Virus record (IMG/VR): IMGVR_UViG_2713896903_000004 | Length of the DNA: 17,818 nucleotides | DNA from: a virus | Taxonomy: Duplodnaviria > Heunggongvirae > Uroviricota > Caudoviricetes | Reading direction: 5' to 3' (one strand) | Shown here: positions 3,826 to 17,674 of the stretch, piece by piece | How positions within the stretch are numbered: the first letter of the stretch is position 1 | Layout of the letters: the number at the start of each line of letters is the position of its first letter | The notes under the pieces: model-generated | The model's input: only the letters and a program-made list of their open reading frames with translations | What the model was told of the DNA's origin: nothing | Databases searched by the model: none | Program-made: the position numbers and the translations under genes

Positions 3826-4082
3826 CAGCGCAGTACCTCCTGCACCAGTTTTTCAAACTTTCCAACTTTGGTTTCCAGCTCTGCCACACAATCAACGAGC
3901 TCATCCACCGCTTTTTGTGCGCGATGTTTCGCCTGCATCAGTTCCCTGAGCGCTGGCACCATATCCCGACGAATGGCATCTTTTGTTACACCTGTTTTTT
4001 CCAGTTGTTCCGCCTGTCGCAACATTTCCTGTGCCTGTTTACGTAGTTGTTCAGGGGTAAAAGTCATTGTCTGGTTGTTCAA
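3825..4082 (-). CDS. Hypothetical coiled-coil protein (nin-region position)
   Basis: 85-aa ORF rich in E/K/R/Q heptad-like sequence. TTG start overlaps the DnaB stop (TTGA) with GGAG upstream; an alternative ATG lies at 4067. Its stop overlaps the Q start by 1 nt. Confidence 0.55.
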   Translation of the reverse strand: MNNQTMTFTPEQLRKQAQEMLRQAEQLEKTGVTKDAIRRDMVPALRELMQAKHRAQKAVDELVDCVAELETKVGKFEKLVQEVLR

Positions 4083-5470
4083 AAGAAACGCTCCATCTTA
4101 CTGCTGTCAGTTCGTTTGTTGCTGTATCTGCGCGGCTGGGGCTGCTGCATTGGGGTGGAAAGAATCTGTGCGCTTTCCTGATCCACAGGCAGAAAATGTC
4201 CGTTATAAAAACGCCGGTAAATCGTCCCCAGAGAACCGTTACGTTGTTTCGTGATATTGATTTCTGCTATGCCCCGGGCCTGCGTATCCGGGTTGTACAC
4301 TTCATCCCTGTAAAGCATCAGAATGATGTCTGCATCCGCCTCTATTTCTCCGGAATTTTTCAGGTCTGAGTTCATGGGGCGTTTATTGGGTCTGGACTCC
4401 ACACCACGGGAGAGCTGGCTCAGCGCAATTAAGGGAAAACCACCGGATTTTGCCAGGCCTTTAAGCCCCTTTGAGATTTCACCCACGGCAAGGTCATGAC
4501 GCCCCGTGGTTCGGGTTTTTATCAGCCCGAGATAATCAACCACCACCAGCGCCGTTTCCGGATATTTAATCAGGTGGTGTTTCGTTGTTGCGCATATCTC
4601 GTCAATGGTCAGGTTCGCCTGGTCCACCATCCAGATATTGCGCCCGGTCATCCGCCCCACCCCTTGTGAGAAACGCGCCCAGTCTTCGTCTTCAAAGTGA
4701 GCGACAGATTTCAGACGTGATACCGGCATTCCTCCAGCCGCAGATACCATGCGCTCACCAATCTGGATGTTCGCCATTTCCATTGTGAACAGAAGAACAC
4801 CATGCCCCTGCTCAGTCACCTTGTCGATGATATCCAGCGCCAGTTCAGTTTTGCCCATTGACGGACGAGCCGCAATAAATACCAGGTCGCCGGGCTCCAT
4901 GCCGCCTGTTTTTGCGTCCAGTTCATCAATACCGGTCATCAACGTCCTGGATTTCTCCAGCCCCTGATTCCGGCATTCAACACGCTCAACCACTTCCGGA
5001 AGCACATCATCAATATGTACCGGCTGAATAACGCCCTTTTCCGTCGACAATGAGGCCATCATGTTCTGCGCATCCTTCAGGGCATCTTCAGCTGCTTCAC
5101 AGGTATGCGCATCACGTAATTTCTGCAACGCCTCATTCAGTGTTTTTTCTGCATCACGCAATGCGGCATTGCGACGCAACGCTGCAACATAGTGCTCCAG
5201 TGAAGACTTCACCCAGGTTTTACGCCCGGTATCAGTAATCACCGGAGCAAGTTCCGGCATCTCATTGCACAGCAGCACAGGATCAATCACACCTGAAACA
5301 CGAGCCTGTCTGCAGATGCCTGTGTAGATATCCCGATACGCTCGTACAGAAAAAACGTCCGCCGGTAGTGTGGCCAGAATATCCATCACTTCATGATCTG
5401 CCCCTCGCAGAAAAAACGCGCCAATGACAGCGCCTTCCAGGTCATCGTTACGCCAGACAGGAGAAGTCAT
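4079..5470 (-). CDS. Replicative DNA helicase, DnaB family
   Basis: 463-aa ORF with Walker A ARPSMGKT and typical DnaB C-terminal RecA-like motifs (LVVVDYLGLI, ALSQLSR). ATGA overlap with the upstream loader gene. Confidence 0.9.
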   Translation of the reverse strand: MTSPVWRNDDLEGAVIGAFFLRGADHEVMDILATLPADVFSVRAYRDIYTGICRQARVSGVIDPVLLCNEMPELAPVITDTGRKTWVKSSLEHYVAALRRNAALRDAEKTLNEALQKLRDAHTCEAAEDALKDAQNMMASLSTEKGVIQPVHIDDVLPEVVERVECRNQGLEKSRTLMTGIDELDAKTGGMEPGDLVFIAARPSMGKTELALDIIDKVTEQGHGVLLFTMEMANIQIGERMVSAAGGMPVSRLKSVAHFEDEDWARFSQGVGRMTGRNIWMVDQANLTIDEICATTKHHLIKYPETALVVVDYLGLIKTRTTGRHDLAVGEISKGLKGLAKSGGFPLIALSQLSRGVESRPNKRPMNSDLKNSGEIEADADIILMLYRDEVYNPDTQARGIAEINITKQRNGSLGTIYRRFYNGHFLPVDQESAQILSTPMQQPQPRRYSNKRTDSSKMERFF

Positions 5471-6345
5471 GCTGCCATACCTCTGATACGAGAACGATAG
5501 CTGGGCCAGTTAAACGACAACCAGTTGCGTCCCCCGTCTGTGATCCTGTCGGCAATGCGGGGGCTGATGAATGCCCACAACTCTTCCGGTGAAAGGTTGC
5601 TGATCAGGATGGTGGGCAGGATGCTTTCGTACCGGGCATTGATAATTTCCTGCAAAATAGCCATTTCAGCCGCGCTGCCAAACTGAACACCAACTTCGTC
5701 GATGATCAGCAAATCCATTGACGCATAATGCTCAATAACTTCATCCGCTGTTTTTTCGCTGTCATTCCGCCAGCAGTTTTTCACAGCACGGGTAAGGCGC
5801 ATCACGTCGGTGATCTCCACACTGGCCAGATAGTTACGGATGATGTGTTTTGCCATTGATACCGCCAGATGATTTTTCCCGGTTCCGCAACTACCAGTCA
5901 TAACAAGACTGGTACCGTTCTCCAGCATATCTGGCCAGTTCTCCGCATAGCGGCGACAGGCCGCAAGATTTCTGGCTGCGTCAGGATTAACCTCCAGATA
6001 ATTATCAAACTCGCAGTCCCGAAAACGCAGGGCAATTCCGGCGTTATCAGTCAGCTCTTCCGCCTTGAGGGACGACAGCTCCATGGTCAAATCGTTGGCC
6101 TCAGCGATCAAGCAGTCAGGGCAGCATGAAATTTTTTCTCTGTCCTCGCCATTACGATCGCTCCACACCAGTATATGCGTACTGTATTTACCGTGTTTTT
6201 CGCAATATCCGCGGCCTTCACGCATCAGGCAGGAACGATAAGGCCATGGCTTTTCGCCCTTCTGAGCAAATGCAATCTCTGCCCGTAACTCATCCATTCG
6301 CGCCTGTAGTCTTTTTTGTTGTTCACGCAGGTTAAACGTCATCAT
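5467..6345 (-). CDS. DnaC-like helicase loader (IstB-type AAA+ ATPase) with N-terminal Cys cluster
   Basis: Walker A GSCGTGKNHL and Walker B LLIIDEVG. N-terminal CEKHG...CCPDC. I prefer the ATG at 6345 (SD GAGGTGA 5 nt upstream) over the track's GTG at 6354. Confidence 0.85.
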   Translation of the reverse strand: MMTFNLREQQKRLQARMDELRAEIAFAQKGEKPWPYRSCLMREGRGYCEKHGKYSTHILVWSDRNGEDREKISCCPDCLIAEANDLTMELSSLKAEELTDNAGIALRFRDCEFDNYLEVNPDAARNLAACRRYAENWPDMLENGTSLVMTGSCGTGKNHLAVSMAKHIIRNYLASVEITDVMRLTRAVKNCWRNDSEKTADEVIEHYASMDLLIIDEVGVQFGSAAEMAILQEIINARYESILPTILISNLSPEELWAFISPRIADRITDGGRNWLSFNWPSYRSRIRGMAA

Positions 6346-6355
6346 CGCTGTCACC

Positions 6356-7180
6356 TCAGAATGTCAGTTTGTCACTGGATTTACCGAATTTGTCAGACAT
6401 GGCTCCCAGGCCAGCCAGGACATCGACCTGTCGCTGTCGCCCACCTCCGGGAGCGGCTGGCTGTTGCCAGAATTCTTCGAAGTGACGATCGGGTCCAAAG
6501 AACGTCGCAGCCTGCTTCACGAACTGTGTGCCGGTATTTCCTGTAGCACGTACCCAGGCGGCATACCGCTTCACGCCATCAAGCATGGTCTCCGGTTTTA
6601 TTCCCTCCCTGAGACGGGCTTTCCAGGCTTTGAAGGCTGCCGACTTGGAATTGCCACCAGCACGTTTGGGATATTCCTGCCAGGCCTGTTCAAATTCCGG
6701 TGAATATTCCTGTCGGGCAGAGCGCGCTGGTGCAGACGCGTCAGCGGGTGCGCCAATTGTTGGTTCATTGACTGGTTCTTTGACTGGTTCAAAAGAGTGA
6801 CTGGTTCTGGGTGAATCTCCTGCACTACCCCCTGGTGCAACTCCTGCACCACCTGGTGAATTTGCTGCACTAGGTAGTGAATTATTTGCACTACCACCTG
6901 GTGAATCTTTTGCACCATCAAGACGAAGAAGATAAATATTGCTCGAGTTCCCTTTTTCACCTTTCCGGGAAACTTTTTTTACCAGTCCCGATTCACAAAG
7001 AGCCGTAATATGATTCATCACAGAACGTTTGCTAATCTCGCACTGATCAGCAATATGCTGATAGCTGGGCCAGCACTCGCCCTGATCGCTGGCATTATCA
7101 GCCAGCTTAATCAGAACCAGTTTTCGCAACGGATTTCCCACGCGAATTTTCATCGCTTTCACCATCAGCTCCATGCTCAT
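6356..7180 (-). CDS. Replication initiator (O-like; N-terminal winged-helix, repetitive linker, C-terminal domain)
   Basis: 274-aa ORF. N-terminal HTH-like region (SYQHIADQCEISKRSVMNHITALCESGLV). A low-complexity Gly/Ser/Pro/Ala linker is encoded by the iteron DNA. GGAGG upstream. Precedes the DnaC/DnaB-like genes as in lambdoid replication modules. Confidence 0.7.
   Translation of the reverse strand: MSMELMVKAMKIRVGNPLRKLVLIKLADNASDQGECWPSYQHIADQCEISKRSVMNHITALCESGLVKKVSRKGEKGNSSNIYLLRLDGAKDSPGGSANNSLPSAANSPGGAGVAPGGSAGDSPRTSHSFEPVKEPVNEPTIGAPADASAPARSARQEYSPEFEQAWQEYPKRAGGNSKSAAFKAWKARLREGIKPETMLDGVKRYAAWVRATGNTGTQFVKQAATFFGPDRHFEEFWQQPAAPGGGRQRQVDVLAGLGAMSDKFGKSSDKLTF
6761..6916. repeat. 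Iteron array inside the initiator gene (putative origin of replication)
   Basis: Three copies of TGACTGGTTC (6769-6778, 6781-6790, 6799-6808), then about five tandem ~21-bp units of the form GGTGAAT-N-TGCAC-N-CCT (6810-6916). A more AT-rich stretch follows at ~6920-6990. Confidence 0.55.
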
Positions 7181-7401
7181 AACACACCTCCCAGGCGTTT
7201 AAACATTTTTCCGGACTGAAACACCACCAGTGGGTAACTGATGGTGTAGTTACGCCCCAGTAATTCACACACGACTTTCTGGCTTTCGGTGCTGACCAGG
7301 CAAACCCGCAGAACGTGACCGTTGCTGGTGGCGAACCACTGCCCCACACGGGGGCAACGGTTGTATCGGTGATACAGGGAATTAACGACGCGGCGAATCA
7401 T
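7177..7401 (-). CDS. Hypothetical small protein (74 aa, Cys-containing) immediately upstream of the initiator gene
   Basis: ATG at 7401 with strong SD GGGAGGTG 7 nt upstream. ATGA overlaps with both the upstream 220-aa gene stop and the initiator start. The track's longer 79-aa version lacks an RBS. Confidence 0.5.
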   Translation of the reverse strand: MIRRVVNSLYHRYNRCPRVGQWFATSNGHVLRVCLVSTESQKVVCELLGRNYTISYPLVVFQSGKMFKRLGGVL

Positions 7402-8060
7402 GGGCGCACCTCCCATTGATTACGGCGGAAAGCGGTGTGACTGAGACTGGTTTCAGTTTCATGGAATGCTTCAATGCAGCTCTCGTAGTACCGCATTGTG
7501 CGCAGACTTAACCCAAGCTGAAGCATCATCAGGCCATCAAGGGTGATGTAATAACCACGCAGGGAGTCACCATAGATGTGATAAGTACCCGGTATGAAAT
7601 TGCGGGTAAAAAATTCGCGCGAGCAGTTCAGATACTCGATTTTGTCGACGATGTTCTGGTGCATGCGCTTGAAATGGCAGGCAACATGCAGGGAGAAAAT
7701 AACGGCCTTGCCGTTGACGACTTCGATTTTCAGGTATGGGGAAGTTGGGACAGTAGCCATGATGGCAGCCTCCTTGATCGGTGAAATACTTCCACCACCG
7801 GAAACGCCAATTTCGCTGGTGGTGAACTGAACGGGGTTGGCGTAACCGGTGATCAAGGAAACCGGCGCATCTTTCGATGCCCCCGCCCAGCCCACCATAA
7901 CTTTGATGTGAGCAAATGCGGACGATAAAAAAGACGCTGGCGCGTCATATATCGCCTTGATCAATTCCAGGACGCCAATCCCGGCACCCGCTTTATAAGG
8001 TGCAGAGACAGTGTAACGTCCCGAAATTGCAGAATCAATATTTAGGATTGAAACATTCAT
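7398..8060 (-). CDS. Hypothetical protein (220 aa) occupying the cII slot
   Basis: 663-nt ORF in ~50% GC DNA, co-oriented and coupled with the downstream early genes. No recognisable HTH or catalytic motif. Weak RBS at the annotated ATG. Confidence 0.6.
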   Translation of the reverse strand: MNVSILNIDSAISGRYTVSAPYKAGAGIGVLELIKAIYDAPASFLSSAFAHIKVMVGWAGASKDAPVSLITGYANPVQFTTSEIGVSGGGSISPIKEAAIMATVPTSPYLKIEVVNGKAVIFSLHVACHFKRMHQNIVDKIEYLNCSREFFTRNFIPGTYHIYGDSLRGYYITLDGLMMLQLGLSLRTMRYYESCIEAFHETETSLSHTAFRRNQWEVRP

Positions 8061-8137: not shown

Positions 8138-8163
8138 AGCCGGGTCACTACCCGGCTTTTTTT
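8138..8163 (+). terminator. Intrinsic terminator oriented for + strand transcripts (antisense to the early-right operon)
   Basis: 8-bp stem agccgggt / acccggct with loop cact, followed by tttttt (8158-8163) on the + strand. On the minus strand the hairpin is followed by cgcucaacg, with no U tract. Overlaps the Rha stop codon. Confidence 0.55.
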
Positions 8164-8870
8164 CACCGGTGCCAGCCAATAACCTGAAATAACCCCATTT
8201 TCGGGTGATACCAGCGAGTCCCTCGCTGTTCTGCTTCCTCCATAACCCGATAAAAAGCAGCCATAAACGGTTCCACAGCAACAATTGCGCGACGTGACAA
8301 CAATCCGTCCGGCGTCATGAACTCATGGGTGTCTGTAGGAATTTGATAGGCGTTCACCAGATTGCGGCATTTATCATCTGACAAACCGGTTTTTGCTTTC
8401 AGTTGGCGATATCCGGCATAGCCCTCACGAATGTTGCCCTTTTTGATTTGCTCAACTGTTTCGGCAACGTGGCTGACTTTTTCTTCCACCTGAGTGATCC
8501 GTTTCTGCTGACGAACAGCTTCAAGAGCCATCGCGGCAACCATTTCGATTTCGCTCATTGGCTTACGGATCTGTTCTTCCAGTTCGCGCCAGCGATCTAC
8601 CAGGCGGGCTGTGAATTCGGGACAAAGCTGTGCGACGACAATGATGCTGTCGCGCTTACCTTGTTCGCCTTCGAAGATGTAAGCACCTACATTTCGTTTT
8701 AATCCTAAGTTGTTGATTATTTCGAAATTCGCCATTGGCGCACTTCGAATAATCCCCTTATCCATGAGCCTTTCAATGCTGCGCTTAACATCTTTGTGTT
8801 GGCTGCCCACCAACTCTGCGATTTCAAGGCTGGTCATGGATGCTTTGCCGTTAAAAATTGCGGTGTTCAT
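8163..8870 (-). CDS. Rha-family phage regulatory protein / antirepressor-like
   Basis: 235-aa ORF. N-terminus MNTAIFNGKASMTSLEIAELVGSQHKDVKRSIERL is typical of the phage Rha domain as I remember it. GGAG 8 nt upstream. ATGA overlap with the cro-like stop. Confidence 0.7.
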   Translation of the reverse strand: MNTAIFNGKASMTSLEIAELVGSQHKDVKRSIERLMDKGIIRSAPMANFEIINNLGLKRNVGAYIFEGEQGKRDSIIVVAQLCPEFTARLVDRWRELEEQIRKPMSEIEMVAAMALEAVRQQKRITQVEEKVSHVAETVEQIKKGNIREGYAGYRQLKAKTGLSDDKCRNLVNAYQIPTDTHEFMTPDGLLSRRAIVAVEPFMAAFYRVMEEAEQRGTRWYHPKMGLFQVIGWHR

Positions 8871-9181: not shown

Positions 9182-9197
9182 CGTTAAACCTAGAATA

Positions 9198-9217
9198 TTT
9201 ATCGGAAAGCCGATAAA
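9198..9217. promoter_or_regulatory. Operator-like perfect palindrome TTTATCGG-N4-CCGATAAA between the cro-like and cI-like genes
   Basis: 8-bp inverted arms with a 4-bp spacer, just downstream of a TAGAAT -10-like element (9191-9196) oriented toward cI. Related CGATAAACCGAT / ATCGGTAAACC motifs recur at the PL-like promoter. Confidence 0.5.
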
Positions 9218-9249
9218 CTAGCCAAGATAGAGAGGGGAGGAAAATCGCA

Positions 9250-9942
9250 ATGACATTTTCAGAACGACTTGATTTAGCTATGCGCAACGCAAAATTTACG
9301 CAAGGTAGGCTGGCCAAAGAAGTGGGTATGGCTCAGTCCAGTGTTAATCAACTACTTAACAAAGCCAACGGTTCCAGAAAAACAGTCGAAATAGCAAAAG
9401 TTTTGGGCGTTAACCCGGAATGGCTCGCATCGGGTGTTGGTCCAATGGAAATCGTGACCTCTGCAGACTCACACCAAATACGTAACATTTCTGAAGATTG
9501 GGTTACTGATTCGTATGTCGTGGATGTTTTAGACATCAGATATAGTTGCGGACCTGGTAGTTATAACTCTGATTTTCCTGACATTGTCAGATCTATAGCG
9601 ATAGAACCAGGATACGCATCAAGAGTTTTTGGCGGCAGACCAGCATCAGCAATCAAAGCAATAAACGCCCACGGCGACAGTATGAAAGGCACAATAGACC
9701 CTGAAGACTTGGTATTTGTAGATGTATCAGTTCGCACATTTAATGGTGATGGTATATACGCCTTTACATACTCTGGAACATCGCACATCAAAAGACTTCA
9801 AAAAATCAAAGATACTCTAACGGTGATATCTGACAACCCAGCTTACAAGGATTGGGCTATCGAACCGGAAGACTTCGAACAACTTCACATTGACGGAAAA
9901 GTAATTGTCAGTTGGCCTATGACACTACACCGTTTTGCATAA
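9250..9942 (+). CDS. CI-like prophage repressor (N-terminal HTH, C-terminal LexA/S24 autopeptidase domain)
   Basis: 230-aa ORF with GGAGG upstream. HTH-like QGRLAKEVGMAQSSVNQLLN. C-terminal S24-like motifs GDSM (Ser) and a downstream KRL (Lys). Confidence 0.85.
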   Translation: MTFSERLDLAMRNAKFTQGRLAKEVGMAQSSVNQLLNKANGSRKTVEIAKVLGVNPEWLASGVGPMEIVTSADSHQIRNISEDWVTDSYVVDVLDIRYSCGPGSYNSDFPDIVRSIAIEPGYASRVFGGRPASAIKAINAHGDSMKGTIDPEDLVFVDVSVRTFNGDGIYAFTYSGTSHIKRLQKIKDTLTVISDNPAYKDWAIEPEDFEQLHIDGKVIVSWPMTLHRFA

Positions 9943-9956
9943 GCAAAAATCATTTA

Positions 9957-9986
9957 ACCCGCCCACTCTTAAGTGGGCTTTTTTTT
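9957..9986 (+). terminator. Rho-independent terminator downstream of the repressor gene
   Basis: Stem gcccact / agtgggc (9961-9967 and 9972-9978) with loop ctta, followed by T8 (9979-9986). Confidence 0.7.
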
Positions 9987-9994
9987 GGAAAAAA

Positions 9995-10036
9995 ATCGAT
10001 AAACCGATTGACAGGTGAAATCGGTAAACCTATTAT
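9995..10036 (+). promoter_or_regulatory. PL-like early-left promoter (TTGACA-17-TATTAT) with overlapping operator-like repeats
   Basis: Consensus -35 TTGACA at 10008-10013, a 17-nt spacer and -10 TATTAT at 10031-10036. ATCGATAAACCGAT overlaps the -35 and ATCGGTAAACC lies in the spacer. Confidence 0.55.
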
Positions 10037-10085
10037 CTTGACATAGGTATCGAACTCACCAAAGCAATTATAGAGGATGAGAAAA

Positions 10086-10583
10086 ATGTCATCGTATATG
10101 GGATTACCAACAAATCAGCACGATGCTCTTGAGAATATTCAGCTCTTAGTAGGGGCTGGTGCACTACTGTATAGCAGCAATAACCCTGAGTTAATTGAAC
10201 TTGCCAGCTCCATCCTGGCTGTAACTCAAAAATATAGCCTCACCGCGTCACGTTTATGCAAACAAAATTTAGCTATTAATTCCCAGAATCGGATTCGCAC
10301 CCAACGCGAAGCCTGCGGCTTAACAACCGCCGAACTCGCCAGGCTGCTCGAACTCGATGAAGAAATCATCATCCAGTGGGAGAGTGGAGAGTATGAACCA
10401 ACCATCAGTATGCTTATCCCACTGGCTAATGTTCTTGGCTGCGATCCGATGTGGCTGTTAACTGGCGAGGTTACTCCTCCGGAGCAACCAAAAAGTGAGG
10501 AGCAGCAACACCATGACGCATCTCAACAAGTTTGCTCCTTATCTCGCGAAGCTCTTCTACGGAAGAACCAATACCAATGGTGA
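10086..10583 (+). CDS. XRE-family HTH protein (first gene of the early-left operon)
   Basis: 165 aa from the ATG at 10086 (SD GAGGA 8 nt upstream); the track's start at 10077 abuts the SD. HTH-like segment CGLTTAELARLLELDEEIIIQWESGEYEPTISMLIPLANVLGCDPMWLLTG. Confidence 0.6.
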   Translation: MSSYMGLPTNQHDALENIQLLVGAGALLYSSNNPELIELASSILAVTQKYSLTASRLCKQNLAINSQNRIRTQREACGLTTAELARLLELDEEIIIQWESGEYEPTISMLIPLANVLGCDPMWLLTGEVTPPEQPKSEEQQHHDASQQVCSLSREALLRKNQYQW

Positions 10584-11273: not shown

Positions 11274-11462
11274 ATGGAAGAAAAACAACAAAACATAACA
11301 CATAAAAAAGTAAGAGTGTTGCTAACCATTGAAAATGGTGAAGTAATTTACTCAAAACATCTGTTGGATAGTGAATTCGTTGGCTGCATGGATACATTTC
11401 TGTGGATGGCAAAAAGAGCTGGCTACACGATTATTCCACCAGCAAAGGAGCAAACATTATGA
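11274..11462 (+). CDS. Hypothetical small protein (62 aa)
   Basis: ATG at 11274 with SD GGGAG 8 nt upstream. Its stop overlaps the start of the next gene (ATGA). Confidence 0.45.
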   Translation: MEEKQQNITHKKVRVLLTIENGEVIYSKHLLDSEFVGCMDTFLWMAKRAGYTIIPPAKEQTL

Positions 11463-12040
11463 ATCATTCAGAGTTCCGACCAGAAGTTACTCCACATGGC
11501 ATAAAAATTGGCAATACAACCATTGATTATGTTGAAGCTGTGCGGCGTCTTAATGATGGTGAATACGATTATCCAAATTCACGCGGTTTAAGAATCCTTC
11601 AGTGCCTTGCCGAAGCTGATGATGCCGGATTGCTGGGGAAATTTTCCATCGATATGAAGGTTGCACAATGGCGCTGGCTGTATGTAACGATATTTATAAA
11701 CGAAGAGGAATATAAGAACGGCACCATTGATATCTCGAACGAAAACGGAACTACAGGTCGCGCAGTTATTTATAAAGGGAAATATGGTTGTATGGGTATC
11801 TACCCGGGACCAATTCGCATTGCCCTGCAAAACCATGTCGAATGGGGATTTATTGAAAAATATGGTGAAGATGAAGGTATGGGGCGAGTTCTGTTTCTCT
11901 ATCAAAAAATGCTCATCGCAGATCCTGATAATGGTTTCATTGTTTCTGCTATGGGACGCGAAGGGCTTGAACTCCTTCTGGATGAAATGATTAACGACCT
12001 GAATACTCATGGTATGCCAGAAGCGCCAGTGACACATTAA
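11459..12040 (+). CDS. Hypothetical protein (193 aa)
   Basis: ATG at 11459 with SD AAGGAG 8 nt upstream, translationally coupled to the preceding small ORF. No recognisable domain. Confidence 0.65.
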   Translation: MNHSEFRPEVTPHGIKIGNTTIDYVEAVRRLNDGEYDYPNSRGLRILQCLAEADDAGLLGKFSIDMKVAQWRWLYVTIFINEEEYKNGTIDISNENGTTGRAVIYKGKYGCMGIYPGPIRIALQNHVEWGFIEKYGEDEGMGRVLFLYQKMLIADPDNGFIVSAMGREGLELLLDEMINDLNTHGMPEAPVTH

Positions 12041-12086
12041 ATATTAAGAAGAAAATAATTCTTCCAGTTTTTTACTAACCGTTTAT

Positions 12087-12194
12087 ATGAAAAGCAACCG
12101 TGAATTAAACAGAGTAAAACTGATTTTAATCCTTGCCACAGTGGTGACACTAACTGAAATTATTATTCTCTTTATTGCGCTGTCAGTCGGTTAA
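12087..12194 (+). CDS. Possible small hydrophobic peptide (35 aa)
   Basis: MKSNRELNRVKLILILATVVTLTEIIILFIALSVG forms a single predicted TM helix. No clear SD, so speculative. Confidence 0.2.
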   Translation: MKSNRELNRVKLILILATVVTLTEIIILFIALSVG

Positions 12195-12217
12195 AAATAT
12201 CGGGATACCACAGACCA

Positions 12218-12406
12218 ATGAGACTGTATTTCACAATAGTAATTTTACTGGCAATTATCGCATGCATTTACGGATTACTCGTTCCGTTCCTTATATCCAT
12301 GAAGGATACGATAGCAGTTATTTCTGGCTTTGCACTGGCGTTTCTGACCCCGCCCTGCATTTATGCCATTTACAAGGGTCTTTCTTTCACTAAGGATAAA
12401 AGATGA
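12218..12406 (+). CDS. Small membrane protein (62 aa, two hydrophobic helices)
   Basis: Hydrophobic stretches FTIVILLAIIACIYGLLVPFLI and VISGFALAFLTPPCIYAIY. Its stop overlaps the SPFH gene start (ATGA). Confidence 0.5.
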   Translation: MRLYFTIVILLAIIACIYGLLVPFLISMKDTIAVISGFALAFLTPPCIYAIYKGLSFTKDKR

Positions 12407-13230
12407 AAAAAATTATTTTTGCTTTAGCCATTGTTCTGCCGACTATTGGCCTCGTCGGTTGCGATCGCGTTGAACCAGGTAATGTTGGCATCAAGGTAAA
12501 TAAACTGGGCGACGACAAAGGCGTCGGTGAGGTGGTCGGTGTTGGTCGCTACTGGACAGGCTGGAACACTGAAGTTTATATCTTCCCGACCTTTAAGCAG
12601 ATGAAGACCTACGATGATCCATTCAGTTTCCAGATGAGCGATGGAACAACCATTGGTTACCACATCGGAGTAGCCTACAAGGTTGATCCATCCAAAGTTA
12701 CCACGGTGTTTCAAACCTACCGCAAAGGTGTGGATGACATTACCGACACCGACCTGCGCCAGAAGATAGCAGATGCACTAAATCGGCTGGCCAGCAAAAT
12801 GACCACCGACAAATTTATCGACGGCGGCAAGTCTGAGCTGCTGGATGCAGCTCTAAAAGATATTCAGGCAGAAATGACGCCCATCGGTATTCAGGTAATG
12901 AGCCTGTCTTATGTAGGTAAACCGGAGTACCCGCCAACCGTTATCGACAGCATTAACGCCAAAGTCACGGCAAACCAGAAAACCCTGCAACGCGAGCAGG
13001 AAGTAAAACAGCGCGAAGCGGAAGCCAACATGTTGCGTGCGGAGGCTGCCGGACAGGCAGATGCAATTCGCACAAAAGCTCAGGCCGAAGCCGATGCTAT
13101 TCGTTTACGCGGTGAAGCTCTGCGCCAGAACCCCGGTGTTATGGAGCTGGAAGCCATCAATAAATGGAACGGCACACTGCCGCAATACATGACCAGCGGT
13201 GCCAATACACCATTTATCCAGGTTAAATAA
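12403..13230 (+). CDS. SPFH/band-7 (prohibitin/HflC-like) domain lipoprotein
   Basis: Signal peptide with lipobox LVGC (MKKIIFALAIVLPTIGLVGC). SPFH-like core and an Ala/Glu/Arg/Gln-rich coiled-coil tail (QREAEANMLRAEAAGQADAIRTKAQAEADAIRLRGEALRQ). SD AAGGA upstream. Confidence 0.75.
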   Translation: MKKIIFALAIVLPTIGLVGCDRVEPGNVGIKVNKLGDDKGVGEVVGVGRYWTGWNTEVYIFPTFKQMKTYDDPFSFQMSDGTTIGYHIGVAYKVDPSKVTTVFQTYRKGVDDITDTDLRQKIADALNRLASKMTTDKFIDGGKSELLDAALKDIQAEMTPIGIQVMSLSYVGKPEYPPTVIDSINAKVTANQKTLQREQEVKQREAEANMLRAEAAGQADAIRTKAQAEADAIRLRGEALRQNPGVMELEAINKWNGTLPQYMTSGANTPFIQVK

Positions 13231-13237
13231 CTTATAT

Positions 13238-13256
13238 GCCCGGCAGGCCGCCGGGC
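13238..13256 (+). other. GC-rich hairpin after the SPFH gene (no U tract; weak terminator or RNA-stability element)
   Basis: Stem gcccggc / gccgggc with loop aggcc, followed by taagggaaaag. Confidence 0.3.
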
Positions 13257-13270
13257 TAAGGGAAAAGCAG

Positions 13271-13630
13271 ATGAACACCCATAATGCCCAACCGCAAATA
13301 ATGAACTATGACCCGAATCTGACGTCATGCGGACGCATGGCAAAACAAACCGTTCGATTAACTTTCGGGTTATGGGAATACCGCGAAACATTCGAAGTCA
13401 CTGTCGGTGGCAACCTGACCGGACTCGATGTTATCAGTTGCGCTATTGAAAGCCTGTACGCAACGCTGCCTTATGAAGAAGTCGAGGATGAGCGCGATAT
13501 CATCGCCACCATTAATATCGGCGGCGTGAAATGCAAGGATGAAAACTTGATCGGAGAACTCTGGCTTGCCGGGATGCTTATCTCTGCAGAAATTATCAGT
13601 ATTGAACCCGCTACAAACATACCGCTCTGA
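13271..13630 (+). CDS. Hypothetical protein (119 aa)
   Basis: ATG at 13271, in frame with the longer track ORF 13199-13630. AAGGG-like SD upstream. Confidence 0.55.
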   Translation: MNTHNAQPQIMNYDPNLTSCGRMAKQTVRLTFGLWEYRETFEVTVGGNLTGLDVISCAIESLYATLPYEEVEDERDIIATINIGGVKCKDENLIGELWLAGMLISAEIISIEPATNIPL

Positions 13631-13661
13631 AGTTCTCACAACTCAGGGAACAGGAGAAAAA

Positions 13662-13904
13662 ATGTTCGCTTTGATTAATCAAGGGCAACTGTATACCGAC
13701 AGTGCCGGTTACCCGGTAAAAATTATTCGCTGCATAAATAACATCGTGTTGTACAGAAGAATGGATGGGCGAACACAGTCGGTAAAAATAAACGATTTTA
13801 ATGAACTGTTTGAACGGATCGCTCACCAGGAATACCGACAAATTCTGGCAGAAACAGAGCAGGAAGCTCATCTGAAAAAATTACGAGCCATGAAAAGGAA
13901 GTAA
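13662..13904 (+). CDS. Hypothetical protein (80 aa)
   Basis: ATG at 13662 with SD AGGAG upstream, in frame with track ORF 13566-13904. Confidence 0.5.
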   Translation: MFALINQGQLYTDSAGYPVKIIRCINNIVLYRRMDGRTQSVKINDFNELFERIAHQEYRQILAETEQEAHLKKLRAMKRK

Positions 13905-13907
13905 AGA

Positions 13908-14054
13908 ATGAATAAAGCATTTGAACGATGGGTCCACCAGCGTTACGGCAATCGCTATGACCTGACACGAGATGTCGACGGTTTCTACTGTCGTGAAATT
14001 GTGAAACGAATGTTTGAAGTGTGGTGCCACTGCCGCGGACTGAGTGTTGTGTGA
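13908..14054 (+). CDS. Small hypothetical Cys/His-containing protein (48 aa)
   Basis: ATG at 13908 with SD AGGAAG upstream. Contains FYCREIVKRMFEVWCHCRG. Below the track size cut-off. Confidence 0.3.
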   Translation: MNKAFERWVHQRYGNRYDLTRDVDGFYCREIVKRMFEVWCHCRGLSVV

Positions 14055-14061
14055 GGGAAAT

Positions 14062-14298
14062 ATGGGGAATGTGATTCAACTGGCTCCCAATGAATGGGTG
14101 TGTGAAAGCGTTCTTATCGCGATTACCGGACTCAAACCAGGCACAATTCTTCGGGCCCGGAAAGAATGCTGGATGGTTGGAAAAGAGTATATTCACGTAT
14201 CACCAGACGGTAATCCAAAGCCTTCCAGCGAGTGTATGTATAACAGAAAAGCAATAGATGCTTGGGTCGCTTCAATGAAAAACAAACAACCTGGGTGA
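14062..14298 (+). CDS. xis: Excisionase-like protein (Xis)
   Basis: 78 aa from the ATG at 14062 (SD GAGGG). The segment ITGLKPGTILRARKECWMVGKEYIHVSPDGNPKPSSECMYN matches my memory of the lambdoid-prophage excisionase family. Lies immediately upstream of int. Confidence 0.6.
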   Translation: MGNVIQLAPNEWVCESVLIAITGLKPGTILRARKECWMVGKEYIHVSPDGNPKPSSECMYNRKAIDAWVASMKNKQPG

Positions 14299-14353
14299 TT
14301 TAATGCCATGAAGTATGTAATCTCGTATCGCTCTTGGGCGTCTGGAGGTATCA

Positions 14354-15667
14354 ATGGATAAAGTCAAATATCCAACAGGCGTCGAAAACCACGGCGGCAC
14401 ATTACGCATCTGGTTTAATTTTAAAGGTAAACGTGTCAGGGAAAATCTTGGTGTCCCTGACACTGCCAAGAACAGGAAGATCGCCGGGGAACTACGGACA
14501 TCGGTATGTTTTGCCATCCGCACAGGAAGCTTTGATTATGCTGCACAGTTCCCTGACTCCCCTAACCTTCAGGCTTTTGGGGTAAGTAAAAAAGAAATTA
14601 CGGTGAAAGAACTTGAAGAAAAATGGCTGGATCTGAAACGAATGGAAATCTCTGCAAATGCATTCAATCGCTATGAATCCGTTGCAAGAACGATGGTTCC
14701 GAAAATTGGAGGCAGCAGACTGGTGTCATCGGTAACTAAAGAGGAATTGCTGTATATCAGGAAAGATTTGCTGACCGGGTATCAGAATTCAACGAAAAAC
14801 AAAGCAGCAGCAAAAGGACGGAGCGTCGTTACTGTAAATTATTACATGACGACAATCGCTGGAATGTTTCAGTTTGCTGCAGATCACGGTTACTTAGAAG
14901 CAAATCCCTTCCAGGGAATTAAGCCTCTTAAAAGAGCCAGGGCAGAGCCAGATCCGCTAACTCGTGACGAATTTATTCGCCTGATAGATGCTTGCCGACA
15001 TCAGCAGACGAAAAACCTGTGGTCATTGGCTGTGTACACAGGAATGCGTCACGGTGAACTGGTCTCCCTGGCCTGGGAAGATATCGATCTGAAAGCAGGA
15101 ACTATTACTATCAGGCGCAATTATACGAAACTCGGTGAGTTCACTCTACCTAAAACTGAAGCAAGTACAAACAGGGTTGTGCATCTTATCCAGCCCGCTA
15201 TCAGTGTCCTGAAAAATCAGGCTGAAATGACAAGACTGGGTAAGCAGCACCACATCAAGGTTCAACTACGTGAATATGGGCGTTCAGTGAATCATGAATG
15301 TACTTTCGTATTTAACCCCCAGGTGGTTAGAAAAAGCAAACAGGTCGGTTTTATCTACAAGGTAGATTCTATTGGCGACTCATGGGAAACAGCCATTAAG
15401 CGTGCGGGCATCAGGCACCGGAAAGCATACCAGTCACGACACACTTATGCGTGCTGGTCGTTATCTGCCGGAGCAAATCCAAGCTTCATTGCCAGCCAGA
15501 TGGGCCATGCAAGTGCCCAGATGGTGTTCAATGTATACGGAGCATGGATGACTGACAGTAATGCAGAACAGATCGCAATGCTGAATCAGAAGCTGGCAGA
15601 TTATGTCCCAATGATGCCCCATAGTCACCAAAATGGCACAAAAGGCTTATTAAAATCAGTAAGTTAA
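14354..15667 (+). CDS. int: Tyrosine integrase (lambda/Rac-type with N-terminal arm-binding domain)
   Basis: 437-aa ORF with SD GGAGG 5 nt upstream. Catalytic-domain motifs TGMRHGEL, SRHTYACW and the tyrosine region NVYGAWM. Adjacent to the host junction. Confidence 0.9.
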   Translation: MDKVKYPTGVENHGGTLRIWFNFKGKRVRENLGVPDTAKNRKIAGELRTSVCFAIRTGSFDYAAQFPDSPNLQAFGVSKKEITVKELEEKWLDLKRMEISANAFNRYESVARTMVPKIGGSRLVSSVTKEELLYIRKDLLTGYQNSTKNKAAAKGRSVVTVNYYMTTIAGMFQFAADHGYLEANPFQGIKPLKRARAEPDPLTRDEFIRLIDACRHQQTKNLWSLAVYTGMRHGELVSLAWEDIDLKAGTITIRRNYTKLGEFTLPKTEASTNRVVHLIQPAISVLKNQAEMTRLGKQHHIKVQLREYGRSVNHECTFVFNPQVVRKSKQVGFIYKVDSIGDSWETAIKRAGIRHRKAYQSRHTYACWSLSAGANPSFIASQMGHASAQMVFNVYGAWMTDSNAEQIAMLNQKLADYVPMMPHSHQNGTKGLLKSVS

Positions 15668-16150: not shown

Positions 16151-17674
16151 ATGAAACGTGCAATCAGTTACATCCGATTCAGTTCTGAGAAGCAATCCCG
16201 AGGTGATTCACTACGCCGACAATCGAAGTTGGTCACTGACTGGCTTAAAGCTCGTCCTGAGTATCATCTAGATGAATCTCTTACCTTCCGTGATTTGGGG
16301 AAAAGTGCTTTTAGCGGTAAGCACTTGAAAGGTGGCTTAGGCGACTTCTTAACCGCTATTGAGAAAGGGCTTGTAAGAGCTGGTGATACGCTCTTGATAG
16401 AGTCTCTTGACCGTCTGTCACGGCAAGATGTAGACCGAGCAAGTGAACTACTCAGAAACATCCTTCGCTCTGGTGTCGATGTGGTCACATTATCCGATAA
16501 TGAACACTACACAAAGGAATCTCTTAAAGACCCGTTAGCCTTGATTAAGTCAATCCTGATTATGCAACGAGCGCATGAGGAAAGTTTGAGGAAGTCTGAG
16601 CGTATACAGGCTGCATGGGATGCAAAGAAAGAAGCCGCTAAAGCTGGTATCAAGATTTCTAAGCGTTGCCCTGCATGGCTTAAGCTTAATAATGACCGTA
16701 AAAGTTTCTCTGTAATCCCTGAGAAGGTAGCGACGGTAAAGCGATGCTTCCAGCTACGGTTAGAGGGTAAGTCTATCTTGGAAATTGTCAGAACTCTTAA
16801 TAGTGAGGGACATCAGACGCTTAACCAGTACAAAGCGGGTAAATTTAGTCAGACTTCTGTGCAAGACCTTTTGAAGAATCGCTCTGTAATTGGTTATTTC
16901 ACCCCCAAAGGCTGTGAAGAAATTTCAAACTATTACCCCTCTATCATCCCTGAGACTGATTTCTACAAAGTCCAGCAACTATCATATCCTCGTTACGGTA
17001 GAAAACCTGCTTCAGATAAACCATTGAGTGTGAATCTTTTCAAGGGTGTTATCCGTTGTTCTGAATGTGGTCATGCTCTGATTATCACAGGCTTTAGCGA
17101 TACAAGGAACGGGATATATCGCTGCCCTCTTCGTAATGAAAACCGTTGCAGTGCTAAGGGTCTGTCACGTAAGCAAACTGATGGAACATTACTTGCTTTG
17201 CTCTCTCGTCTTGACCGATTTGAGAATGGTACAACGAATGCCATTGATACACTGAAGCTACACCGTGAACACATTTCAAACAATATTGAGAAGCTGGTAC
17301 AACTCTCACTTGAAGTCGAAGACCTGACCGCTATTACCAGCAAGTTAAAACAGTTAAAGGGGGAGTTATCACAGGTTGATGCTGATATTGAGAAGGAGGC
17401 ACAACGCCTTAAATCTATTGACGTGGGTTGTTTGTCTGATTGTGACTTGAGTACAAAGGCGGGAAGGATTGAAGCACAACTGATTATTCGTAGTGCTGTT
17501 AAAGAAGTTGTTTTAAACACTGCTAAACGTCGCTGTAGAGTAACTTTTCACAATGGCAAGGTGATTGACCTGTCGATAACAGAAAACCCCGCTCAGGACA
17601 TTACAGAGGCTGAAAAGTCGCTTACTGAAATTGCTGAGAAGGGTCTGTTAGATGTTGACGCCTTCCAACTGTAG
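16151..17674 (+). CDS. Large serine recombinase (resolvase-type catalytic domain, recombinase domain, zinc ribbon, coiled coil)
   Basis: 507-aa ORF. N-terminal ISYIRFSSEKQ...SLRRQ with the catalytic Ser in RFSS. Cys cluster CSECGH...CPLRNENRC. C-terminal coiled-coil region. Confidence 0.85.
   Translation: MKRAISYIRFSSEKQSRGDSLRRQSKLVTDWLKARPEYHLDESLTFRDLGKSAFSGKHLKGGLGDFLTAIEKGLVRAGDTLLIESLDRLSRQDVDRASELLRNILRSGVDVVTLSDNEHYTKESLKDPLALIKSILIMQRAHEESLRKSERIQAAWDAKKEAAKAGIKISKRCPAWLKLNNDRKSFSVIPEKVATVKRCFQLRLEGKSILEIVRTLNSEGHQTLNQYKAGKFSQTSVQDLLKNRSVIGYFTPKGCEEISNYYPSIIPETDFYKVQQLSYPRYGRKPASDKPLSVNLFKGVIRCSECGHALIITGFSDTRNGIYRCPLRNENRCSAKGLSRKQTDGTLLALLSRLDRFENGTTNAIDTLKLHREHISNNIEKLVQLSLEVEDLTAITSKLKQLKGELSQVDADIEKEAQRLKSIDVGCLSDCDLSTKAGRIEAQLIIRSAVKEVVLNTAKRRCRVTFHNGKVIDLSITENPAQDITEAEKSLTEIAEKGLLDVDAFQL

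What the first reader, a model, noticed from the sequence alone, without database searches (positions are those of the whole stretch)
12087..13230. SPFH/band-7 lipoprotein with coupled small membrane proteins: candidate membrane-level exclusion module
A 275-aa lipoprotein (lipobox LVGC) with a prohibitin-like SPFH domain and coiled-coil tail follows a 62-aa two-helix membrane protein (ATGA overlap) and a possible 35-aa hydrophobic peptide. SPFH proteins organise membrane microdomains. A prophage-encoded set in the early-left arm suggests superinfection exclusion or lysogenic conversion of the envelope.
Basis: partly seen in the sequence, partly recalled or inferred. Interest (0 to 1): 0.6.

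Follow-up and report, generated by a model that had tools for sequence, protein, structure and literature searches.

The report
Phage SPFH lipoprotein with membrane partner
A prophage carries a tightly conserved pair of genes, a small two-helix membrane protein and a lipid-anchored SPFH scaffold protein, that is shared by many unrelated phages and some bacteria, and whose role in infection has not been tested in any paper I could search.

Summary
ORFs 12218-12406 (62 aa) and 12403-13230 (275 aa) overlap by ATGA in the early-left arm of a phiP27-like prophage. p275 is a true SPFH/Band_7 protein (Pfam E 1e-30). Its AlphaFold model (pLDDT 92) matches HflK/C, prohibitin, erlin and stomatin cage subunits over its full length. 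It has a signal peptide, lipobox LVGC and Asp at +2.

p62 is a real gene (phrog_1130), an N-in/C-in hairpin with a conserved Px[LM][IV]S..[ST] turn. The pair is an ancient two-gene module. The partner sits directly upstream in about 76 of 80 loci from many phyla. It is fused in frame to the SPFH protein in at least 14 of 150 family clusters.

The module occurs in temperate and virulent phages (N4 gp19-gp20, SSU5, P88, PVP-SE1). It also sits at a syntenic chromosomal site in Dyella.

The 35-aa ORF is not part of the module and is poorly supported.

No evidence supports superinfection exclusion. There is no PADLOC hit, p275 is under strong purifying selection, and the genes lie in an early operon with no promoter of their own. 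Most likely this is a periplasm-facing inner-membrane SPFH cage with a transmembrane partner, acting on the host. Its role for the phage is untested.

The parts
12218..12406 (+). p62: 62-aa inner-membrane hairpin (two TM helices, N-in/C-in) with the conserved periplasmic turn motif LVPFLISMKDT. It is the integral-membrane partner of the SPFH lipoprotein.
   Evidence: ORF. phrog_1130 E 2.5e-23. 35 homologue clusters of 62-65 aa in Enterobacteriaceae. Intact in 81/81 close loci, pN/pS 0.24. Alignment of 22 diverse partners has an invariant Pro and a near-invariant Ser. K+R versus D+E counts: N-tail 38/6, loop 9/19, C-tail 84/20. No Pfam family.
12403..13230 (+). p275: SPFH/Band_7 lipoprotein precursor of 275 aa. 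Its start overlaps the p62 stop (ATGA).
   Evidence: Pfam Band_7 E 1.1e-30. phrog_200. AlphaFold pLDDT 91.7. Foldseek full-length matches to HflK/C 7vhq (6.9e-14), prohibitin, erlin and stomatin. pN/pS 0.033.
12403..12462 (+). Signal peptide (residues 1-19) and lipobox L-V-G-C (Cys20 at 12460-12462). Asp21 follows at 12463-12465 (position +2).
   Evidence: Read directly from the sequence. Cys20 is kept in at least 90% of 76 relatives. 97 of 150 family representatives have a recognisable lipobox. In E. coli, Asp at +2 marks inner-membrane retention (established rule, own knowledge).
12466..13026 (+). SPFH domain (residues 22-208; SPFH1 strands 20-94, SPFH2 96-175 in the model).
12934..13227 (+). 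Long wall helix (residues 178-242), short helix (244-254) and flexible C-terminal tail (255-275) with family-invariant W255 and G257 and near-invariant P260. This is the presumed oligomerisation and cap region.
   Evidence: Model secondary structure and pLDDT. Invariant columns. Prohibitin-2 and HflK coiled-coil matches.
12087..12194 (+). p35: 35-aa hydrophobic ORF. It is doubtful as a gene and not part of the conserved module. It could at most be a leader ORF for p62, which has only a weak ribosome-binding site in this window.
   Evidence: Present in phiP27-like and Stx phage relatives but replaced in 33 of 81 close loci, where p62 has an AGGAGG site of its own.
13239..13257 (+). G+C-rich hairpin (GCCCGGC-aggcc-GCCGGGC) just after the p275 stop, with no U tract. 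It is not a canonical terminator, and the next gene (DUF5406, 13271-13630) follows at once.
   Evidence: Fold -17.1 kcal/mol, z -1.8. Not called by the terminator scan.
9961..10036 (+). Context: a strong terminator after cI (9961-9978) followed by a near-consensus sigma-70 promoter (TTGACA-17-TATTAT, 10008-10036). The promoter is flanked by CGDTAAACC repeats that recur upstream of cI. This is the likely repressor-controlled early-left promoter that drives the operon containing the module.
   Evidence: The motif occurs 3 times in the window (9182, 9997, 10022), expected 0.33, and 1 of 200 shuffles reached 3.

Best explanation
p62 and p275 form a self-contained two-gene membrane-scaffold module that phages have borrowed from bacteria.

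Shown or strongly implied:
- p275 carries a signal peptide and lipobox, so it should be exported and lipidated at Cys20.
- With Asp at +2 it should stay on the periplasmic leaflet of the inner membrane.
- It has the complete architecture of cage-forming SPFH proteins: membrane-proximal SPFH1, SPFH2, a wall helix of about 65 residues, and a conserved C-terminal cap segment.
- p62 is an N-in/C-in hairpin whose short conserved turn lies at the periplasmic membrane surface.
- The two genes are translationally linked, co-inherited across phyla, and fused in many lineages as TM1-TM2-signal/anchor helix-SPFH.

Inferred:
- p275 assembles into an HflK/C- or prohibitin-like ring or dome over a patch of inner membrane, facing the periplasm.
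- p62 supplies the transmembrane fence and the cytoplasmic tails that a lipid anchor alone cannot give.
- The module is transcribed with the early-left operon, so it is made soon after induction or infection rather than in the quiet lysogen.
- It acts on a conserved host feature by walling off or stabilising part of the inner membrane. The best precedent for a client is an FtsH-type membrane protease.
- It does not act on a component of a competing phage.

My confidence in the structure and topology part is about 0.7. My confidence in the host-directed early role is about 0.4.
For: SPFH identity and full-length structural match to HflK/C, prohibitin, erlin, stomatin, flotillin and QmcA cage subunits. 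Lipobox with conserved Cys.

Partner linkage:
- The script found a separate upstream 2-TM ORF with the motif in 59 of 80 genome loci, a 2-TM ORF without the regex motif in 2, and in-frame fusions in 5.
- Six more partners were found by eye, plus 1 pseudogene and 2 loci where an IS1-like insertion splits the pair. That is about 76 of 80.
- At least 14 of 150 family representatives at 50% identity are natural fusions that keep the lipobox helix.
- The fusion model gives three N-terminal helices followed by the SPFH domain, with pLDDT 76-87 over the helices.
- The positive-inside rule gives N-in/C-in.
- All five Enterobacter/Klebsiella-type prophage places tested through the p62 homologue carry Band_7 immediately downstream.

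The same pair occurs in N4 (gp19-gp20), SSU5 (061-062), P88 (gp11-gp12), phi1026b and PVP-SE1. No third neighbour is conserved over 20 SPFH lineages.

Cellular origin: the locus is syntenic in about 24 Rhodanobacteraceae genomes, and it has housekeeping neighbours in Dyella and Leptospira.

Host-directed role: pN/pS is 0.033 and identity is 92% between unrelated phage types.

Early expression: the module sits in cox- or cI-proximal early operons and in the N4 and PVP-SE1 early/middle regions. Promoter-like sites near the module are no more frequent than chance. A strong promoter with operator-like repeats lies downstream of cI.
Against: - Oligomerisation, lipidation, localisation and the p62-p275 contact are all inferred. 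No multimer model or experiment was possible.
- Arg at +3 may weaken the Asp+2 retention signal. Only 15 of 97 family lipoboxes have Asp at +2, so outer-membrane sorting in some hosts cannot be ruled out. The fusions do argue for the inner membrane.
- No client is identified.
- Matches to the HflK and HflC equivalog models are far below cut-off, so an FtsH link is analogy only.
- The operator inference rests on three 9-mers.
- A Pasteurella prophage SPFH protein, PM0222, was detected in lysogen cultures and changed envelope and virulence phenotypes (PMC9872710). This shows that expression from a prophage, and lysogenic conversion, can happen.
Confidence: 0.45

Rival explanations
1. Superinfection exclusion. 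The p62/p275 assembly alters the inner membrane or periplasm so that the DNA of a second phage cannot cross. It would be made early, as T4 Imm/Sp or T5 Llp are.
For: The module is made of envelope proteins in an early operon, and it is present in virulent as well as temperate phages. In N4 it directly follows gp18, annotated 'superinfection exclusion, similar to P22 gp17'. In PhiSH19 the SPFH gene neighbours a 'superinfection exclusion protein' (PMC3220722). Small 2-TM proteins and lipoproteins are typical exclusion factors (own knowledge).
Against: No PADLOC model matches. No literature link was found. The same module is a syntenic chromosomal gene pair flanked by housekeeping genes in Dyella, and has housekeeping neighbours in Leptospira. 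p275 is nearly invariant across phages with different entry machineries and hosts (pN/pS 0.033). The N4 gp18-like gene is absent from this window and from all other loci fetched.
Confidence: 0.2
2. FtsH-directed regulator. The periplasmic SPFH cage captures or competes for FtsH as HflK/C does. That would tune the stability of the phage's CII-like regulator and Xis, making it a functional analogue of lambda CIII in the same early-left position. In virulent phages it would tune host FtsH substrates.
For: The closest solved relatives by sequence and fold are HflK/HflC in complex with FtsH, and prohibitins, which partner m-AAA proteases. The topology matches HflK/C (periplasm-facing, inner membrane). 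The same operon encodes a protein matching a PHROG annotated 'CII-like regulator', at 10077-10583. A Bruynoghevirus paper raises the HflK/C and lysogeny idea for phage SPFH proteins but calls the role unclear (PMC8540360). Prokaryotic SPFH1, SPFH3 and SPFH4 families are linked to FtsH (PMC2636767).
Against: HflK/HflC model scores are 22.7 and 24.7 bits against cut-offs of 159 and 134. No FtsH-contact residues could be tested. The idea does not obviously explain the module in strictly virulent phages or in hosts that keep their own HflK/C.
Confidence: 0.2
3. Lysogenic conversion or virulence factor. The lipoprotein is made in the lysogen, changes envelope properties, is shed in outer-membrane vesicles and stimulates TLR2, as reported for Pasteurella PM0222.
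For: PM0222 is a prophage-encoded HflK/C-like protein of 25-35 kDa. It was detected in whole cells and vesicles. Its deletion changed capsule, adhesion, serum sensitivity, biofilm and mouse virulence (PMC9872710). The module is found in 571 of 5426 complete E. coli genomes, including Stx phages.
Against: I could not verify that PM0222 belongs to this family. There is no promoter or terminator above chance around the module. The likely operon promoter carries operator-like repeats. Presence in many strictly virulent phages (N4, PVP-SE1, phiEa21-4, phiCbK, crAss-like) cannot be explained by conversion. Asp at +2 predicts inner-membrane retention, not surface or vesicle exposure.
Confidence: 0.12
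4. Lysis-timing device. p62 is a class II holin- or antiholin-like hairpin, and p275 restrains or organises it in the membrane.
For: p62 has the size, two TM helices and basic C-tail typical of class II holins and pinholins (own knowledge). Single members of the partner family gave faint hits to holin families (E 0.04-0.06).
Against: Those hits are not significant. The module is never next to an endolysin or spanin in the loci examined, lies in early rather than late regions, and exists as a chromosomal housekeeping-context pair.
Confidence: 0.05

Closest known systems
HflK/HflC (E. coli FtsH-modulating SPFH cage; PDB 7vhp, 7vhq, 7wi3, 9cz2)
   Same: It is a periplasm-facing, inner-membrane-anchored SPFH protein with SPFH1-SPFH2-long helix-C-terminal cap. 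It is the best sequence hit in the PDB (E 1.3e-3) and the best fold hit (6.9e-14).
   Different: It is anchored by a lipid rather than an N-terminal TM helix. There is a single SPFH gene rather than a K/C pair. Scores against the HflK and HflC equivalog models are far below cut-off. It has a dedicated 2-TM partner. No FtsH link is shown.
SPFH-NfeD operons (QmcA-YbbJ, PDB 8z5g; stomatin PH1511-PH1510; FloT-YuaF)
   Same: An SPFH scaffold gene is paired in one operon with a small membrane-protein partner gene. The two are occasionally fused, and the pair is spread by lateral transfer (PMC2636767). QmcA is among the fold hits (7.5e-8).
   Different: p62 has no NfeD/OB-fold domain and no Pfam match at all. 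The SPFH domain faces the periplasm, not the cytoplasm. The anchor is a lipobox.
Phage N4 gp19-gp20, SSU5_061-062, P88 gp11-gp12, phiP27 L05 (PHROG families 1130 and 200)
   Same: These are the same two-gene module. N4 gp20 is 62% identical to p275, SSU5 80%, P88 92% and phiP27 L05 99%. Each has an overlapping or adjacent upstream hairpin protein with the same motif.
   Different: None of them has been characterised. p62 is not even annotated in phiP27. The partner proteins are only 20-30% identical between lineages while the SPFH proteins stay at 60-90%.
Pasteurella multocida PM0222 (Pmorf0222), a prophage-encoded HflK/C-like protein
   Same: It is a prophage-borne SPFH protein of similar size. 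It is the only functionally studied phage-derived SPFH protein that I found (PMC9872710).
   Different: Its reported role (TLR1/2 agonist in vesicles, virulence) concerns the animal host, not phage biology.
Known envelope-level exclusion factors (T4 Imm and Sp, T5 Llp, HK97 gp15, P22 SieA)
   Same: They are small inner-membrane hairpin proteins or lipoproteins expressed early or from prophages (own knowledge).
   Different: There is no sequence or profile similarity (PADLOC negative). Those factors are lineage-specific and fast-evolving, whereas p275 is conserved from Leptospira to E. coli and has cellular copies.

Membership tests
SPFH / Band 7 superfamily (Pfam PF01145) | SPFH domain scoring above the Pfam gathering threshold | tested here: met
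   107.5 bits against a cut-off of 23.6, residues 22-208 covering profile positions 2-176 of 176.
SPFH / Band 7 superfamily (cage-forming members) | Membrane anchor, then SPFH1, SPFH2, a long coiled-coil helix and a C-terminal segment, superposable on solved cage subunits | tested here: met
   Model pLDDT 91.7. Foldseek alignments of 260-300 columns to HflK/C, PHB1/2, erlin1/2 and stomatin, with E 1e-13 to 1e-11.
SPFH / Band 7 superfamily (cage-forming members) | Assembly into a large ring or cage oligomer on the membrane | not testable with these tools
   Only single-chain prediction was available. The conserved C-terminal W255, G257 and P260 are compatible with a cap but prove nothing.
Bacterial lipoprotein | Sec-type signal peptide ending in a lipobox [LVI][ASTVI][GAS]C | tested here: met
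   MKKIIFALAIVLPTIGLVGC followed by DR. The Cys is kept in at least 90% of 76 relatives, and 97 of 150 representatives have a lipobox. Actual acylation is not testable here.
Inner-membrane-retained lipoprotein (E. coli Lol-avoidance rule) | Asp at position +2 after the lipidated Cys | tested here: met
   Asp21 is read from the sequence. Natural fusions that tether the SPFH domain to three TM helices independently place it at the inner membrane. The influence of Arg at +3 is not assessed.
HflK / HflC (TIGR01933 / TIGR01932 equivalogs) | Score above the curated equivalog cut-off | tested here: not met
   22.7 against 159.4 bits and 24.7 against 134.4 bits. It is a relative, not an orthologue.
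NfeD-type SPFH partner | NfeD C-terminal OB-fold domain (PF01957) on the partner protein | tested here: not met
   No Pfam hit for p62 at E <= 0.01. NfeD is not among the listed matches (the 25 families matched by most members) for 22 diverse partners at E <= 1. A 62-aa protein leaves no room for the domain.
Known anti-phage defence or exclusion systems (PADLOC-DB 2.0) | Match to any defence-system protein model | tested here: not met
   No hits for p35, p62, p275 or their immediate neighbours.
Superinfection exclusion (functional class) | Reduced DNA entry or plating of a second phage on expressing cells | not testable with these tools
   This needs an experiment. There is only weak guilt by association in N4 and PhiSH19.
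Class II holin / pinholin (for p62) | Location in a lysis cassette with an endolysin, and a significant match to a holin family | tested here: not met
   The module lies in early regions with no lysis genes nearby. The best holin-family E-values are 0.04-0.06, in single members only.
PHROG 200 / PHROG 1130 (phage protein families) | Significant profile match | tested here: met
   p275 matches phrog_200 at E 1.7e-114 and p62 matches phrog_1130 at E 2.5e-23.

The most novel reading that the evidence does not exclude
The 2-TM hairpin plus periplasmic SPFH lipoprotein would be a previously unrecognised, near-universal phage early-gene device. It would be used by temperate, virulent, jumbo and crAss-like phages alike. 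It would build an HflK/C-like cage on the outer face of the inner membrane, either to seal the infected cell against incoming DNA and lysis from without, or to take control of FtsH-type proteolysis. That would make it a new mechanistic class of membrane-level host takeover or exclusion, with a new partner protein family replacing NfeD.
Probability: 0.25. Interest if true: 0.75.

Novelty: new variant of a known kind. Interest (0 to 1): 0.5.

Why it matters
SPFH scaffolds such as HflK/C, prohibitins, stomatins and flotillins are now known to be membrane cages, but their clients and purpose in bacteria remain largely open.

This module is carried by several hundred sequenced phages: 383 of 50,697 phage records. 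It is also found in about one in ten complete E. coli genomes, including Stx-converting phages and P1/SSU5-type phage-plasmids. The only papers that comment on its role call it unclear (PMC13239085, PMC8540360).

The analysis shows three things:
- The unit is two genes, often fused.
- It faces the periplasm.
- It is cellular in origin and made early.

Together these give a defined, small, portable system in which the function of an SPFH cage can be tested genetically, for example with N4 delta gp19-20 or by plasmid expression. They also show which experiments would separate exclusion, protease control and membrane protection.

Tried and rejected
- The viral-contig scan with p275 returned only 98-100% identical loci. 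These were useful for polymorphism counts but not for diversity.
A 12-sequence alignment worked.
- PADLOC on the module and its neighbours found nothing relevant.
- Rfam found nothing in 11900-13400 on either strand. The idea that p35 is a type I toxin with an antisense RNA therefore has no support beyond two chance-level minus-strand promoter matches.
- The promoter and terminator scan gave counts at or below the shuffle expectation, so no autonomous 'moron' signals were found. The hairpin after gene L06 is not significant (z -0.4). The hairpin after p275 is stable but lacks a U tract.
- Pfam on 22 diverse partner proteins gave only scattered, non-significant hits.
- The N4 gp18 ('Sie, P22 gp17-like') homologue search found none in the window or in any fetched locus.
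- Neighbour clustering for a third conserved component found none. Only the cI-like repressor recurs.
- The p62 90%-identity cluster contains 110-217-aa members named 'SPFH partial'. I suspected fusions, but they are plain SPFH fragments, so this is a clustering artefact.
- Ten literature searches found no functional study of the phage module apart from PM0222. One search ('phiP27/L05') was wasted on unrelated hits.
- I could not confirm that PM0222 belongs to this family.
Full report
**1. What is in the sequence**

The window carries the left arm of a phiP27-like prophage. Region 11400-14400 is 93% identical to phage phiP27 over its whole length.

Gene order on the + strand:
- a cI-type repressor (9250-9942; HTH plus peptidase S24)
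- an HTH protein (10077-10583)
- three small unknowns
- the three ORFs of the finding
- DUF5406 (13271-13630)
- a DUF4222 protein
- excisionase (14044-14298)
- integrase (14354-15667)

Replication genes and Rha/Ash antirepressor-type genes run the other way on the - strand. 'Early-left arm' is therefore a correct description.

The three ORFs are 12087-12194 (35 aa), 12218-12406 (62 aa) and 12403-13230 (275 aa). The last two share ATGA.

**2. The 275-aa protein**

It is an SPFH protein by every test.
- Pfam Band_7: E 1.1e-30 over the whole profile.
- phrog_200 'lipoprotein': E 1.7e-114.
- Only weak, sub-threshold similarity to the HflK and HflC equivalogs.

An AlphaFold model built on 76 diverse relatives is confident (pLDDT 91.7). 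It shows a signal helix, a beta-rich SPFH1 (20-94), SPFH2 (96-175), one uninterrupted helix 178-242, a short helix and a floppy tail.

Foldseek aligns 260-300 columns of this model to the subunits of solved SPFH cages. These are HflK/C, prohibitin 1/2, erlin 1/2 and stomatin (E 1e-13 to 1e-11), then flotillin and QmcA.

The N-terminus is a textbook lipoprotein signal (MKK, hydrophobic stretch, LVGC). The Cys is kept in at least 90% of relatives. Asp follows the Cys, which in E. coli is the inner-membrane retention signal (established rule, own knowledge).

**3. The 62-aa protein is real, and it is the partner**

It matches phrog_1130. It has 62-65-aa homologues across Enterobacteriaceae. It is intact in all 81 close loci, with pN/pS 0.24 and an excess of third-position changes.

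The decisive evidence is comparative.
- P88 (P2-like), RCS47 (P1-like), N4, SSU5, PVP-SE1 and phi1026b each have a small hairpin protein just upstream of the SPFH gene. It usually overlaps the SPFH start.
- In 80 genome loci from many phyla (Enterobacterales, Xanthomonadales, Burkholderiales, Leptospira, Bacteroidota, Firmicutes and others) a script found such an ORF with the motif P-x-[LM]-[IV]-S-x-x-[ST] in 59. It found a 2-TM ORF without the regex motif in 2 and in-frame fusions in 5.
- Inspection rescued six more, one pseudogene and two cases split by an IS1-like insertion. Only four distant loci lack it.
- Among 150 family representatives at 50% identity, at least 14 are natural fusions of the form TM1-turn-TM2-(signal/anchor helix with lipobox)-SPFH.
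- A model of one such fusion gives three N-terminal helices with pLDDT 76-87.

Charge counts over 22 partners (N-tail 38 K+R to 6 D+E; loop 9 to 19; C-tail 84 to 20) put both ends in the cytoplasm and the conserved turn at the periplasmic surface.

The partner has no Pfam family and is not NfeD. No third gene is conserved next to the pair.

**4. The 35-aa ORF**

It is open in all 48 loci that contain this stretch, although one has ATA in place of the ATG start. In the other 33 close loci the homology breaks at the p62 start, and p62 there has its own AGGAGG site.

Its substitution pattern is equivocal: pN/pS 0.53, codon positions 10/4/10, and diversity 0.043 against 0.053 for the adjacent intergenic DNA. 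It has no family and no exact copy in the 15-billion-protein collection. No Rfam match covers the region.

I treat it as not part of the module. I put the chance that it is translated at about 25%. If it is, it may serve as a leader for p62, whose ribosome-binding site is weak in this window.

**5. Where the module lives**

tblastn finds p275 relatives in 383 phage records.
- Temperate: phiP27/Stx phages, P88, P1-like phages, SSU5-like phage-plasmids, and Pseudomonas and Burkholderia temperate phages such as phi1026b.
- Virulent: N4-like, rV5/PVP-SE1-like, phiEa21-4-like, Bruynoghevirus, phiCbK, crAss-like and Lak megaphages.

It is present in 571 of 5426 complete E. coli genomes, at 418 chromosomal and 241 plasmid places.

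It is also cellular. About 24 Rhodanobacteraceae genomes share the same flanking genes. In Dyella and Leptospira the neighbours are ribonucleotide reductase, succinate dehydrogenase, BlaR1-like and MacB-like genes.

The mature SPFH part is 92% identical between lambdoid, P2-like and P1-like phages, and pN/pS is 0.033. The partner and the signal peptide diverge to 20-30% identity.

**6. When it is made**

- In P88 it lies in the cox-to-A early operon.
- In N4 and PVP-SE1 it lies among early/middle genes.
- In five Enterobacter/Klebsiella-type prophages it sits, as here, in a tightly overlapping gene string between cI and xis-int.

In the window, cI is followed by a strong terminator (9961-9978) and an 11/12 sigma-70 promoter (10008-10036). 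The 9-mer CGDTAAACC occurs only three times in 17.8 kb: once upstream of cI and twice around the -35 of that promoter. The expectation is 0.33, and 1 of 200 shuffles reached 3. This suggests shared operators.

Promoter-like and terminator-like sites near the module are no more frequent than in shuffled sequence. The inference, of moderate strength, is expression early after induction or infection, not from an independent lysogen-active promoter.

**7. Mechanism**

Shown:
- SPFH fold with the full cage-subunit architecture
- lipoprotein signal with Asp at +2
- hairpin partner with a periplasmic conserved turn
- obligate genetic linkage, and natural fusions

Inferred:
- p275 is acylated and retained in the inner membrane facing the periplasm.
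- It oligomerises into an HflK/C-like ring.
- p62 provides the transmembrane fence and cytoplasmic tails, one per subunit.
- The assembly delimits a patch of inner membrane.

The cellular copies and the extreme conservation of p275 point to a conserved host target, either a membrane property or a protein such as FtsH. They do not point to a variable component of a rival phage.

What the phage gains is unknown. I rank the options as follows:
- host-directed membrane compartmentalisation or protection during early lytic growth: about 0.45, which overlaps with the FtsH-specific version
- the FtsH-specific version on its own: 0.2
- superinfection exclusion: 0.2
- lysogenic conversion or virulence: 0.12
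- lysis timing: 0.05

These numbers are not exclusive because the FtsH version overlaps the first option.

**8. Comparison with what is known**

It works like HflK/C in topology and architecture. It resembles SPFH-NfeD operons in having a scaffold plus a small membrane partner that is sometimes fused. It is a member of neither: it fails the HflK and HflC equivalog cut-offs, and the partner lacks the NfeD domain.

It belongs to PHROG families 200 and 1130, which have no assigned function.

The literature I could search has no functional study of the phage module.
- Two papers explicitly call its role unclear (PMC13239085; PMC8540360).
- One paper shows that a prophage SPFH protein in Pasteurella is expressed and affects envelope and virulence (PMC9872710). 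I could not verify that this protein is in the same family.
- No defence database model matches.

**9. Verdict**

The 'coupled membrane proteins' idea is strongly supported for p62. The exclusion or lysogenic-conversion interpretation is untested, and several lines of evidence lean against it.

Novelty: a new variant of a known kind. It is an SPFH scaffold with a periplasmic lipid anchor and a previously undescribed non-NfeD hairpin partner, widely carried by phages.

Interest is moderate (0.5). The protein family is already annotated. The two-gene and fused architecture, its breadth across phage lifestyles, and its cellular origin make a long-standing question directly testable: what bacterial SPFH cages do, and why phages carry them.

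Noticed in passing
window 7815-7902 (-) and 7927-8003 (-): Rfam C4 antisense RNA (82 bits) and the isrK Hfq-binding RNA (64 bits) lie next to or inside the Ash/Rha ORF 7398-8060 (-) and beside a Rha-type gene at 8163-8870 (-). This looks like a P1/P7-style antisense-controlled antirepressor module in a lambdoid-like prophage.
   Followed up: no
window 9961-10036 and 9182-9218: A strong terminator directly after cI is followed by an 11/12 consensus promoter. The 9-mer CGDTAAACC occurs only at 9182, 9997 and 10022 (expected 0.33), and a related CCGATAAAC lies at 9210. These are candidate shared operators.
   Followed up: partly
window 1097-2272 and 2275-3489 (+): An NA37/NdpA-like nucleoid-associated protein gene abuts an unknown 404-aa gene, beyond the replication genes (DnaB 4079-5470, DnaC-like 5467-6354, initiator-like 6356-7180, all on the - strand). 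There is no PADLOC hit, and the function in the prophage is unknown.
   Followed up: partly
window 16151-17674 (+): A 507-aa large serine recombinase (Resolvase, Recombinase and Zn_ribbon_recom domains) starts about 480 bp after the tyrosine integrase. This suggests a second mobile element abutting the prophage end.
   Followed up: no
L086 and L087, about 4233-5000 (Shigella flexneri and E. coli chromosomes): An insertion of about 770 bp with IS1-like ORFs separates the p62 homologue (4027-4233, its C-terminus altered) from an otherwise intact SPFH gene (5001-5828).
   Followed up: partly
L167 2145-3379 (Salmonella phage PVP-SE1): An extra 54-aa soluble-looking gene (gp117) is inserted between the hairpin partner gp116 and the SPFH gene gp118. 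This is the only phage locus seen where the pair is not adjacent.
   Followed up: no
L095 about 4800-5000 (Candidatus Symbiopectobacterium): The p62 homologue is interrupted by a stop codon while the SPFH gene remains open. This may be decay in a genome-reducing symbiont.
   Followed up: no
L085 1907-2221 (phage N4 gp18); PhiSH19 75,137-75,457: In two unrelated virulent phages a gene of about 105 aa annotated 'superinfection exclusion' (P22 gp17-like) lies next to the SPFH module. No homologue is in this window or in the other loci fetched.
   Followed up: partly
window 12403-12450 against 12451-13197: DNA similarity to P88 and to P1-like phages (87-89%) covers only the mature SPFH coding part. 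The signal peptide and the partner gene are replaced by very divergent versions. This points to a recombination boundary inside the 5' end of the SPFH gene.
   Followed up: partly
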